22,197 nucleotides of DNA. Origin: a virus. The DNA lies in the UHGV virus genome UHGV-0363730; one strand, written 5' to 3'. The position numbers and the translations under genes are program-made. The notes beneath the pieces are model-generated. The model ran no database searches, had not been told where the DNA came from, and saw only the letters and a list, made by a program, of their open reading frames with translations. Positions 6,224 to 6,412 of this stretch are shown piece after piece. Every line of letters begins with the position of its first letter. Position 1 is the stretch's first letter.

Positions 6224-6412
6224 AGGTTACGGGGCGGCGACCTCGCGGGTTTTCGCTATTTATGAAAATTTTTAGGGAAAAATCAGATCCGTTTTTCTTC
6301 TTTTTAACTGATTGATTATCAATAGAATTTTAAAAATATAAAAGGATCTAACAAAGGCTGTTTTTGTTAGAAAACGCCATTTTCAGATCCTTTCTGGTTC
6401 CCGGGGGAGTGT
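6224..6412 (+). other. cos: Lambda-type cos site: cosN (12-nt cohesive end GGGCGGCGACCT at 6232-6243) and downstream cosB with three R-like repeats
   Basis: AGGTTACG-GGGCGGCGACCT-CGCGGGTTTTCGCTATTTATGAAAATTTT matches the phage lambda right-end/left-end junction as recalled; repeats of AGATCC at 6271-6287, 6341-6355 (inverted) and 6380-6397 precede the Nu1 start, in the R3/R2/R1 orientation pattern. Confidence 0.85.

What the first reader, a model, noticed from the sequence alone, without database searches (positions are those of the whole stretch)
6224..6412. Lambda-type cos site maps the virion genome end inside the window
The 12-nt cohesive end GGGCGGCGACCT and flanking bases match lambda cosN as recalled, and three AGATCC-containing R-like elements lie between cosN and the Nu1 start. 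The window is therefore a prophage-orientation junction (lysis genes and morons left of cos, head genes right). The + ORF 6084-6275 spanning cosN is unlikely to be real.
Basis: partly seen in the sequence, partly recalled or inferred. Interest (0 to 1): 0.35.

Follow-up and report, generated by a model that had tools for sequence, protein, structure and literature searches.

The report
Lambda-like prophage cos packaging site
This is an ordinary lambda-style DNA packaging site (cos) of an E. coli prophage. Its cutting site is identical to that of lambda and phage 21, but its terminase-docking boxes and the matching terminase DNA-binding domain are of the type found in Salmonella phage Gifsy-1.

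Summary
GGGCGGCGACCT occurs once, at 6232-6243, inside a 51-bp run identical to lambda (6222-6272). Window 5700-6259 is 97.5-100% identical to the right end and cosN of phage 21.

A complete lambda-like cos is present:
- cosQ GGGTCCT, 6202-6208
- cosN
- AT-rich I2
- R3, 6284-6299 (+)
- the window's only exact IHF consensus, 6305-6317 (-)
- R2, 6335-6350 (-)
- R1, 6384-6399 (+)
- Nu1 (terS), 6413-6961, then gpA

Subsite positions match lambda, 21 and Gifsy-1 to within 1-2 bp.

One refinement: cosB is neither lambda-type (CGTTTCC) nor 21-type (TGTCGG). Its AGATCC boxes and the TerS recognition helix ([10 protein letters not shown]) match Salmonella phage Gifsy-1, whose DNA-binding domain structure is solved (7LXS).

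Across 75 distinct relatives, helix type and box type never cross classes. The locus is a natural mosaic. A roughly 780-bp block (cosB, Nu1, start of gpA) with its own history sits in a 21-like background.

The ORF across cosN is not conserved and is probably spurious.

This is a new member of a known kind and of low interest. Actual virion ends were not testable.

The parts
6202..6208 (+). cosQ (GGGTCCT), the packaging-termination subsite, at cos bp -29 to -23.
   Evidence: It maps exactly onto the cosQ feature annotated in phage 21 record OL657228 (42902-42908), and the sequence was checked. The block GGGTCCTTTCC is at least 90% conserved in 10 divergent loci (A2). The literature describes cosQ as a 7-bp, highly conserved site (PMC4669245).
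6232..6243 (+). cosN cohesive-end sequence GGGCGGCGACCT. Predicted nicks are 6231/6232 on the top strand and 6243/6244 on the bottom strand, giving 12-nt 5' overhangs. The roughly 22-bp cosN spans 6227-6248.
   Evidence: There is a single exact match with none in shuffles. It matches bases 1-12 of lambda J02459 and phage 21 OL657228, where it is annotated as the nicking subsite. A 51-bp run is identical to lambda.
6249..6281 (+). I2 segment: an AT-rich (76% AT) spacer between cosN and cosB, at cos bp 18-50. The core CTATTTATGAAAATTTT is conserved. The point where identity to phage 21 collapses lies at its right edge (about 6260-6283).
   Evidence: Composition is. The conserved block is seen in A2 and in the four-phage alignment. 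The bp 18-50 definition of I2 comes from PMC4856287.
6284..6299 (+). R3 (CAGATCCGTTTTTCTT), the predicted primary TerS binding site, at cos bp 53-68.
   Evidence: It occupies the same cos coordinates as lambda R3 (CGTTTCCGTTCTTCTT) and Gifsy-1 R3 (CAGATCCGTTCTTCTT). AGATCCGTT is invariant in A2. It forms a direct repeat with R1 at 100-bp spacing.
6305..6317 (-). I1, an IHF binding site (AATCAATCAGTTA, an exact WATCAANNNNTTR), at cos bp 74-86.
   Evidence: It is the only exact match to the IHF consensus in the 22-kb window, although 46 of 100 shuffles had at least one match somewhere. Its coordinates (74-86) equal those of the annotated I1 of phage 21. It is a better consensus match than the lambda, 21 or Gifsy-1 sites.
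6335..6350 (-). R2 (TAGATCCTTTTATATT on the minus strand), inverted relative to R3 and R1. The core starts at cos bp 113.
   Evidence: Found. The core position is 113, against 114 in lambda and Gifsy-1 and 112 in phage 21. AAAGGA(T/A)CT is conserved in A2.
6384..6399 (+). R1 (CAGATCCTTTCTGGTT), the third TerS binding site, at cos bp 153-168.
   Evidence: Found. The core position is 153, against 154-155 in Gifsy-1, phage 21 and lambda. AGATCCTTTC is invariant in A2.
6413..6961 (+). Terminase small subunit (Nu1/TerS, 182 aa). Residues 1-45 form a winged-helix DNA-binding domain of Gifsy-1 type, with recognition helix [10 protein letters not shown]. The remainder is phage 21-like.
   Evidence: Pfam Phage_Nu1 scores E = 8e-86. 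For residues 1-45, identity is 39/45 to Gifsy-1, 31/45 to phage 21 and 27/45 to lambda. For residues 46-160, identity is 101/115 to phage 21 and 89/115 to Gifsy-1. PDB 7LXS (the Gifsy-1 DNA-binding domain) is 46/55 identical.
6933..8861 (+). Terminase large subunit (gpA/TerL), the enzyme predicted to nick cosN.
   Evidence: Pfam GpA_ATPase (2e-55) and GpA_nuclease (6e-71) match. The start at 6933 corresponds to the RefSeq annotation in identical DNA.
6084..6275 (+). Open reading frame across cosQ and cosN (TTG start, 63 aa). It is judged not to be a gene.
   Evidence: It is not annotated in RefSeq and has no Pfam hit. Its N-terminal part is not conserved among loci. Its only PHROG hit (phrog_11159) covers aa 37-63, which is the translated cos DNA.

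Best explanation
The region 6202-6399 is the cos site of a lambdoid (phage 21-like) E. coli prophage.

**Inferred mechanism, by homology to lambda and 21.** Dimers of the TerS (Nu1) winged-helix domain bind the AGATCC-type boxes R3 and R2. IHF bound at I1 bends the AT-rich spacer and brings these boxes together; R1 helps. The bound TerS positions TerL (gpA) to make staggered nicks at 6231/6232 (top strand) and 6243/6244 (bottom strand). This creates the 12-nt 5' cohesive end GGGCGGCGACCT, which would be the left end of the virion chromosome. Packaging runs rightwards through Nu1, A and the head and tail genes. It ends when the next cosQ and cosN are reached.

**Predicted specificity.** cosB is of the Gifsy-1 class: box core AGATCC with TerS residues T20/A21. 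It is distinct from lambda (GTTTCC with Q20/N21/E24) and from phage 21 (TGTCGG with E20/R21).

**Mosaic.** cosQ, cosN and I2 are 21/lambda alleles. The block 6260-7040 (cosB, Nu1, N-terminus of gpA) has a separate evolutionary history.

**Shown versus inferred.** Shown: the sequence anatomy, its conservation, the covariation and the homology. Inferred: binding, bending, nicking and actual use in this prophage.
For: - **cosN and flanks.** The cohesive-end sequence is exact and unique, inside a 51-bp run identical to lambda. Identity to the phage 21 end is 97.5-100% up to 6259.
- **Subsite positions.** cosQ sits at the annotated phage 21 position.

| Subsite | Position (cos bp) |
|---|---|
| R3 core | 53 |
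| I1 | 74-86 |
| R2 core | 113 |
| R1 core | 153 |

  Lambda, phage 21 and Gifsy-1 have these at 53, 74-86, 112-114 and 154-155.
- **Orientation.** The boxes read +,-,+ as in lambda (PMC4669245 and PMC9026076).
- **Conservation.** In 10 divergent AGATCC-class loci with different cosN alleles and unrelated spacers, the cosQ, I2, R3, R2 and R1 blocks stay invariant or nearly so (A2).
- **Covariation.** Across 75 distinct combinations of TerS N-terminus and upstream DNA, 26 of 28 T[AGS]-type recognition helices have the full AGATCC +/-/+ set. ER-type helices go only with TGTCGG boxes and QN-type only with KTTTCC boxes, with no cross-class case (raw data).
- **TerS domains.** The DNA-binding domain is Gifsy-1-like and the remainder 21-like. 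Solved structures exist for lambda (1J9I, 6HN7), phage 21 (7LWR) and Gifsy-1 (7LXS).
- **Terminase genes.** Nu1 and gpA are intact directly downstream.
- **Occurrence.** The identical 397-bp region occurs in 68 complete E. coli genomes. All head and tail ORFs in the window are open.
Against: - There is no experimental evidence for this element. Virion ends, TerS binding to AGATCC boxes and inducibility of the prophage are all untested.
- In some carrier genomes (MCJCHV-1) the tail genes K and J are frameshifted. At least some copies are therefore defective and their cos may never be used.
- An IHF consensus match somewhere in 22 kb is not rare by chance: 46 of 100 shuffles had at least one. 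Its position is the evidence, not its existence.
- The literature held here mentions the Gifsy-1 cosB layout only descriptively. I found no genetic test of its specificity.
Confidence: 0.85

Rival explanations
1. It is a cos site with lambda or phage 21 packaging specificity, the literal reading of 'lambda-type'. The AGATCC boxes would be mere sequence drift of lambda or 21 R boxes, still read by a lambda/21-type TerS.
For: cosQ, cosN and I2 are identical or nearly identical to lambda and 21. R3 differs from lambda R3 only at cos bp 54-56 and 63. The literature shows that cross-packaging between classes can occur: N15 terminase packages lambda DNA (PMC9026076).
Against: The differing triplet includes bp 56, a genetically defined discriminator between lambda and 21 (PMC4669245). 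All three boxes carry the same change. The TerS recognition helix differs at positions 20-21 (TA, against QN or ER). Box type and helix type covary with no cross-class case in 75 combinations. DNA identity to phage 21 collapses exactly at cosB.
Confidence: 0.08
2. It is a fossil cos in a defective prophage. The sequence is intact but no virions are made, so no genome end is ever generated here.
For: Some carrier genomes have frameshifted K and J tail genes, a truncated YdfR-family gene and a frameshifted esterase. One relative (L088) has lost I1 and R2 through a 100-bp deletion and has a truncated gpA ORF, which shows that decay of this module does occur.
Against: In the window itself every head, tail and terminase ORF from Nu1 to I is open and of the expected length. 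Another ST1193 genome has intact K and J. The cos subsites match the conserved consensus of the class at every invariant position. Even if this rival is true, it changes only current activity, not what the element is.
Confidence: 0.3
3. The AGATCC boxes are operator or Dam-regulated promoter elements that control Nu1 transcription, rather than terminase binding sites.
For: Each box contains GATC. There are five GATC sites in 6157-6386, against a background of 3.4 per kb.
Against: There is no plus-strand sigma-70-like promoter upstream of Nu1, and promoter-like hits are not above the shuffled expectation (4 against 2.1 +/- 1.6, all on the minus strand). Box positions and orientations reproduce lambda R3, R2 and R1 to within 2 bp. 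The boxes covary with the TerS recognition helix.
Confidence: 0.03
4. It is the cos of a phage-inducible chromosomal island (PICI) or another satellite that hijacks a helper terminase.
For: PICI cos sites also carry lambda-like cosQ and cosN (PMC9026076).
Against: PICI cosB lacks I1, R2 and R1 and is followed by rpp, not terS and terL. Here all three R boxes and I1 are present. They are followed by a full-length Nu1, gpA and a complete head and tail gene set.
Confidence: 0.01

Closest known systems
Bacteriophage lambda cos (cosQ-cosN-I2-R3-I1-R2-R1) with gpNu1/gpA terminase
   Same: The 12-nt cohesive end is identical and sits in a 51-bp identical run around cosN. The cosQ heptamer is the same. 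The order, orientation and base-pair positions of R3, I1, R2 and R1 are the same. Nu1-family TerS and gpA-family TerL genes lie directly downstream.
   Different: The R-box core is AGATCC instead of GTTTCC (cos bp 54-56 read AGA, not GTT). The TerS recognition helix is [10 protein letters not shown] instead of RTIQNWQEQG. Nu1 is only 51% identical overall. The Nu1 ATG is at cos bp 182 rather than 191.
Phage 21 cos and terminase (gp1/gp2)
   Same: DNA identity is 97.5-100% from at least 5700 to 6259 (right arm, cosQ, cosN, start of I2). It returns to about 90-100% from about 7040 onwards. The Nu1 C-terminal two thirds and gpA are 21-like in protein sequence. The cos architecture is the same.
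   Different: cosB boxes are TGTCGG-type in phage 21. The recognition helix is RTIERWQSQG and the wing reads CASKG rather than LVSGG. DNA identity is only about 55-80% across 6260-7020.
Salmonella phage Gifsy-1 cos and TerS (DNA-binding domain structure PDB 7LXS)
   Same: The R-box core is the same (CAGATCC in R3 and R1, GGATCT in R2) at the same positions. The recognition helix matches (RTVTAWQSQG against [10 protein letters not shown]) and the wing is identical. The DNA-binding domain is 39/45 identical over residues 1-45, and 46/55 identical to 7LXS.
   Different: Gifsy-1 cosN is GGGCGGCAGCGT, differing at bp 8, 9 and 11. DNA identity across cosB and Nu1 is only about 72-80%. The inter-box spacers are unrelated and its IHF-like site is a weaker consensus match. 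Gifsy-1 Nu1 is shorter (164 aa) and less similar in the C-terminal half. The host is Salmonella.
E. coli prophage SerU-LTIIb and a group of IMG/VR prophage contigs (L112-L127)
   Same: They have AGATCC-type R3, R2 and R1 with a T-G/S recognition helix (RTITGWQSQG). They are E. coli-associated relatives of the same cosB class.
   Different: The cosN sequence at the corresponding position is unrelated (GGGTCTGGGGAC-like). The spacers differ. The TerS N-terminal region is about 68% identical.
N15 simple cosB and PICI cos sites
   Same: They have lambda-like cosQ and cosN and an R3-equivalent near cos bp 48-65.
   Different: They have a single R site and no I1, R2 or R1. N15 TerS is not Nu1-like at its N-terminus, and PICIs encode Rpp instead of TerS and TerL. 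The window has the complex three-box cosB.

Membership tests
Lambda-like cos phages (12-nt 5' cohesive ends) | A 12-base cohesive-end sequence with significant identity to that of lambda. | tested here: met
   It is 12/12 identical at 6232-6243, and unique in the window.
Lambda-like cos phages (12-nt 5' cohesive ends) | A conserved 7-bp cosQ upstream of cosN. | tested here: met
   GGGTCCT at 6202-6208 maps onto the annotated phage 21 cosQ.
Lambda-like cos phages (12-nt 5' cohesive ends) | A complex cosB: three R sequences with R2 inverted, and an IHF site between R3 and R2. | tested here: met
   R3 is at 6284-6299 (+), I1 at 6305-6317 (-), R2 at 6335-6350 (-) and R1 at 6384-6399 (+). Positions agree with lambda, 21 and Gifsy-1 to within 2 bp.
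Lambda-like cos phages (12-nt 5' cohesive ends) | Nu1-family TerS and gpA-family TerL encoded immediately downstream. | tested here: met
   PF07471 scores 8e-86, and PF05876 plus PF20454 also match.
Lambda-like cos phages (12-nt 5' cohesive ends) | Virion DNA really carries these cohesive ends. | not testable with these tools
   This requires induction and end-mapping of virion DNA.
Lambda packaging specificity (cosB-lambda with TerS-lambda) | R boxes with a CGTTTCC core, and recognition helix RTIQNWQEQG (E24 paired with bp 56). | tested here: not met
   The boxes are CAGATCC. The helix is [10 protein letters not shown], with S24.
Phage 21 packaging specificity | R boxes with a (C/A)(G/T)GTCGG core, and recognition helix RTIERWQSQG. 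| tested here: not met
   There are no TGTCGG/CCGACA boxes. Helix positions 20-21 are TA, not ER. Identity to phage 21 falls to 55-75% across cosB.
Gifsy-1-type cosB and TerS class | An AGATCC R-box core in +,-,+ arrangement. | tested here: met
Gifsy-1-type cosB and TerS class | A TerS winged-helix domain with a T20-A21 recognition helix and an LVSGGGKG wing. | tested here: met
   Residues 16-36 are identical to Gifsy-1 apart from I19V. Identity to PDB 7LXS is 46/55.
Gifsy-1-type cosB and TerS class | Demonstrated binding of this TerS to AGATCC boxes, and packaging specificity distinct from lambda and 21. | not testable with these tools
   Only covariation supports it. I found no genetic or biochemical test in the searchable literature.
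PICI cos | A simple cosB (R3-equivalent only) followed by rpp, with no terS, terL or morphogenetic genes. | tested here: not met
   There are three R boxes plus I1, and full terminase and head and tail genes.

The most novel reading that the evidence does not exclude
The AGATCC-class cosB may be a third packaging specificity in E. coli lambdoid phages, orthogonal to lambda and 21. In addition, each of its three TerS-binding boxes has a Dam site (GATC, cos bp 55-58) over the position where lambda and 21 are discriminated (bp 56). TerS binding, and hence packaging initiation, could therefore depend on the adenine-methylation state of the replicating concatemer, as is known for cleavage of the phage P1 pac site (own knowledge). 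The evidence is limited. GATC is invariant in R3 and R1 in all class members examined. There are five GATC sites within 230 bp of cos, against 3.4 per kb in the window. No paper linking Dam to cosB was found. The invariance is equally explained by plain sequence recognition.
Probability: 0.1. Interest if true: 0.55.

Novelty: new member of a known kind. Interest (0 to 1): 0.2.

Why it matters
**Practical use.** The site fixes where the linear virion chromosome would begin (6232). It also gives the direction of packaging, which helps in annotating this prophage family. The family is found in 68 complete E. coli genomes, including ST1193 and other extraintestinal isolates, and its cos is not annotated there.

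**Biological point.** It is a clean natural example of modular exchange. The docking site (cosB) and the TerS DNA-binding domain travel together as one block, while the cutting site (cosN, cosQ) and the motor (TerL) are shared with phage 21. It also extends the Gifsy-1 specificity class from Salmonella into E. coli.

If the class is orthogonal to lambda and 21, it would offer a third specificity for cosmid or packaging tools. It could also limit cross-packaging among co-resident lambdoid prophages. None of this is surprising to a specialist in lambda packaging.

Tried and rejected
- **ORF 6084-6275 as a real gene.** Rejected for lack of conservation and annotation.
- **Homology between the minus-strand ORF 5832-6083 and Gifsy-1 STM2610, which occupies the same position.** No alignment was found.
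- **A promoter or operator reading of the boxes.** No support.
- **A PICI or N15-type simple cos.** Rejected on architecture.
- **An isolated phage with this exact cosB.** Among 50,697 phage records only Gifsy-1 (about 72% DNA identity) and the partial SerU-LTIIb record carry the class. IdasGreatGrand, the other top protein hit, turned out to be 21-type.
- **IMG/VR or genome contigs ending exactly at cosN, as indirect evidence of real ends.** None did.
- **Literature on Dam and cosB, and on PDB entries 7LXS, 7LWR and 7LW0.** No primary description was retrievable.
- **Correction to the notebook.** Entry 2 states 50/55 identity to 7LXS. The correct count from the HMMER alignment is 46/55.

Full report

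Yes. GGGCGGCGACCT occurs exactly once in the 22,197-bp window, at 6232-6243 on the + strand. No shuffle of the window contained it, and allowing two mismatches adds no further site.

The match is much longer than the 12-mer. Aligned with the circularised lambda junction, an uninterrupted identical run covers 6222-6272, which is cos bp -10 to +41.

Against phage 21 (M81255, OL657228), the window is 97.5-100% identical in every 40-bp bin from 5700 to 6219, and 95% identical in 6220-6259.

The three AGATCC elements are at 6285 (+), 6344 (-, read as GGATCT) and 6385 (+). The window has only eight such hexamers. The chance that three or more fall in this particular 169-bp interval is about 2e-5.

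The Nu1 start at 6413 is confirmed by a full-length Pfam Phage_Nu1 match (E = 8e-86). gpA follows, with its ATPase and nuclease domains.

**2. Anatomy**

I used the annotated cos features of phage 21 and the sub-site definitions from the Feiss laboratory papers (PMC4669245, PMC4856287, PMC9026076). With these, the whole site can be laid out (sequences checked):

| Subsite | Window coordinates | Strand | cos bp | Sequence or note |
|---|---|---|---|---|
| cosQ | 6202-6208 | + | -29 to -23 | GGGTCCT |
| cosN overhang | 6232-6243 | + | 1-12 | GGGCGGCGACCT |
| I2 | 6249-6281 | + | 18-50 | 76% AT |
| R3 | 6284-6299 | + | 53-68 | CAGATCCGTTTTTCTT |
| I1 | 6305-6317 | - | 74-86 | AATCAATCAGTTA |
| R2 | 6335-6350 | - | 104-119 | TAGATCCTTTTATATT |
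| R1 | 6384-6399 | + | 153-168 | CAGATCCTTTCTGGTT |
| Nu1 ATG | 6413 | + | 182 | |

I1 is the only exact WATCAANNNNTTR match in the window. Its cos coordinates are identical to the annotated I1 of phage 21.

The box-core positions are 53, 113 and 153. They compare with 53/114/155 in lambda, 53/114/154 in Gifsy-1, and about 53/112/154 in phage 21. The geometry is therefore lambda's to within two base pairs. That includes the +,-,+ orientation, which lets an IHF-bent hairpin present R3 and R2 to a TerS dimer.

**3. What kind of cosB?**

Identity to phage 21 collapses just before R3: 75% in 6260-6299, then 55-80% up to about 7020. It recovers to 90-100% from about 7040.

The R boxes are neither lambda's (CGTTTCC) nor phage 21's (CGTGTCGG/CATGTCGG). 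Their CAGATCC core is that of Salmonella phage Gifsy-1, which has the same three boxes in the same places.

The TerS protein tells the same story:

| Nu1 region | Gifsy-1 | phage 21 | lambda |
|---|---|---|---|
| Residues 1-45 (identical/total) | 39/45 | 31/45 | 27/45 |
| Residues 46-160 (identical/total) | 89/115 | 101/115 | not summed |

The recognition helix differs by class:

| Phage | Recognition helix |
|---|---|
| Window | [10 protein letters not shown] |
| Gifsy-1 | RTVTAWQSQG |
| Phage 21 | RTIERWQSQG |
| Lambda | RTIQNWQEQG |

The wing is LVSGGGKG, as in Gifsy-1.

Solved structures exist for all three DNA-binding domains. Lambda is 1J9I and 6HN7. Phage 21 is 7LWR. Gifsy-1 is 7LXS, which is 46/55 identical to the window protein.

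Relative to lambda R3, the window R3 differs only at bp 54-56 (GTT changed to AGA) and bp 63. Genetics has identified bp 56 as a lambda/21 discriminator.

**4. Comparative test**

I fetched relatives from one-genome-per-species GTDB contigs, IMG/VR and phage records.

Among 75 distinct combinations of TerS N-terminus and 185 bp of upstream DNA, the pairing is clean:

- Helices of type RTIT[AGS]WQSQG, RTVTAWQSQG or RTISTWQNQG go with AGATCC boxes. The full +/-/+ set is present in 26 of 28.
- The two exceptions are a deletion derivative and one R2 variant.
- RTIERWQSQG goes only with TGTCGG boxes.
- RTIQNWQ[ED]QG goes only with KTTTCC boxes.
- No locus carries the box set of another class.

I also aligned ten divergent AGATCC-class loci. 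They carry at least four different cosN alleles and unrelated spacers. The conserved blocks are exactly cosQ, I2, R3, the TAAC...TTG part of I1, R2 and R1 (A2).

This is the pattern expected of protein-binding sites that co-evolve with the TerS recognition helix. It is the strongest sequence-only evidence available that the boxes are the terminase docking sites.

**5. Mosaic structure**

The divergent block 6260-7040 contains three things: cosB, all of Nu1, and the first roughly 35 codons of gpA.

From established lambda genetics (own knowledge), the gpA N-terminus is the TerS-interaction region. The Nu1 C-terminus is the TerL-binding region (PMC9026076).

So the block that has its own history is the co-adapted unit of docking site, adaptor and adaptor-binding tip of the motor. 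cosQ, cosN and I2 on one side, and the bulk of gpA on the other, are near-identical to phage 21.

Within the block, the DNA-binding domain is Gifsy-1-like and the rest of Nu1 is 21-like in protein sequence. This natural arrangement is analogous to the laboratory lambda-21 hybrid TerS described in the literature.

**6. Context**

To the left of cos lie:

- a SASA-family esterase (611-2584)
- holin (3312-3527)
- lysozyme (3532-4065)
- Rz (4364-4831)
- a TonB_C-like protein (5088-5468)
- small minus-strand ORFs

To the right lie Nu1, A, W, B, C, D, E, FI, FII, Z, U, V, G, T, H, M, L, K and I, all open.

The identical 397-bp cos region occurs in 68 of 5,426 complete E. coli genomes. The best whole-window match is the prophage of ST1193 strains (98.1% identity over 89% of the window). 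cos is not annotated in those records.

Among 50,697 phage records, only Gifsy-1 and the partial prophage record SerU-LTIIb have this cosB class.

**7. The ORF across cosN**

ORF 6084-6275 has a TTG start, no Pfam match and no RefSeq annotation.

Related loci share only the segment ...VLSGDPxGYGAATSRVFAIYENF, which is simply the translation of the conserved cosQ-cosN-I2 DNA. The upstream part is unrelated from locus to locus. The open frame varies from 29 to 109 codons.

Its single PHROG hit (phrog_11159) covers only that segment, so that family is probably built from the same artefact.

**8. Mechanism and rivals**

The best explanation (confidence 0.85) is a functional-type lambda-like cos of Gifsy-1 cosB specificity, working as in lambda. 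TerS dimers bind R3 and R2 across an IHF bend, assisted by R1. They anchor TerL for staggered nicking at 6231/6232 and 6243/6244. Packaging then runs rightwards and terminates at the next cosQ and cosN. All steps after the sequence anatomy are inferred by homology.

The rivals are:

- **Lambda or 21 specificity with drifted boxes (0.08).** This is contradicted by the covariation.
- **A fossil site in a defective prophage (0.3).** This is compatible with the identity of the element and concerns only its activity. Some carriers have frameshifted K and J, but the window's genes are intact.
- **Promoter or operator elements (0.03).** There is no plus-strand promoter-like site.
- **A PICI cos (0.01).** The architecture and gene content are wrong.

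**9. Novelty and verdict**

The kind is textbook, and the literature already lists Gifsy-1 among lambda-like cos phages with three R boxes and an IHF site. What may be undescribed is this E. coli member, which combines the lambda/21 cosN with a Gifsy-1-class cosB and TerS domain. It is a new member of a known kind, with interest about 0.2.

The most novel reading not excluded concerns the class-defining triplet. It creates a Dam site (GATC) in every R box, exactly over the discriminator position. Packaging initiation might therefore sense methylation state, as at P1 pac (own knowledge). I put this at about 0.1 probability. The data do not distinguish it from ordinary sequence recognition.

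Noticed in passing
L088:1060-1208 (IMGVR_UViG_2529293040_000025), compared with window 6283-6400: A relative with a 98%-identical TerS has an exact 100-bp deletion that fuses the 5' part of R3 to the 3' part of R1. It removes I1 and R2 and leaves a single-box cosB. This is the unequal R3 x R1 crossover that Feiss and colleagues proposed as the origin of N15's simple cosB (PMC4669245). The gpA ORF in that contig is truncated (262 aa), so the prophage is probably decaying.
   Followed up: partly
window 5832-6083 (-): An unannotated 83-aa minus-strand ORF begins about 150 bp left of cosN. It has a signal-peptide-like N-terminus (MKIRNILAISLATSSFSCLA...) and a Cys-rich C-terminus. 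The DNA is about 100% identical in phage 21, where it is also unannotated. It has no Pfam or PHROG hit and no similarity to Gifsy-1 STM2610, which occupies the same position.
   Followed up: partly
window 6084-6275 (+) and PHROG phrog_11159: The only database hit of the cos-spanning ORF is to a PHROG of unknown function, and only over aa 37-63, which is the translation of cosQ-cosN-I2. That PHROG family is probably composed of spurious ORFs called across cos sites.
   Followed up: partly
window 6157-6386: There are five GATC (Dam) sites in 230 bp, against 3.4 per kb in the window. Three lie in the R-box cores and one lies between cosQ and cosN, a position also GATC in lambda and 21.
   Followed up: partly
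loci L089, L090, L003, L112-L127, L144: The same AGATCC-class cosB is combined with at least four different cosN alleles: GGGCGGCGACCT, GGGCGGCGAACC, GGGCGGCAGCGT and GGGTCTGGGGAC-like. This fits the reported tolerance of cosN bp 7-12 to change, and independent assortment of cosN and cosB.
   Followed up: partly
loci L016-L020, L024-L026, L030, L037-L043 and others: Lambda-type Nu1 sequences (the hits at about 51% identity to the window's Nu1) turn up on very short or low-coverage contigs. The assemblies involved are non-enteric genera such as Kitasatospora, Paenibacillus, Chromatium, Bradyrhizobium, Oceanobacillus and Shewanella. This is almost certainly lambda DNA contamination of those assemblies.
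   Followed up: no
window 5088-5468 (+): A TonB C-terminal-domain protein (Pfam TonB_C, 1e-12) lies between the lysis genes and cos, as in phage 21 (CPT_21_73). PHROGs labels its family (phrog_1267) 'Rz-like spanin', which looks like a mis-annotation.
   Followed up: no
L008 (Providencia alcalifaciens, NZ_ABXW01000008.1): A Providencia contig encodes a TerS 77% identical to the window's, with the same [10 protein letters not shown] helix and an R1-like GAGATCCTTTCTG. Its R2-position box reads GGAAGTG rather than GGATCT. The contig is too short to show R3 or cosN.
   Followed up: no
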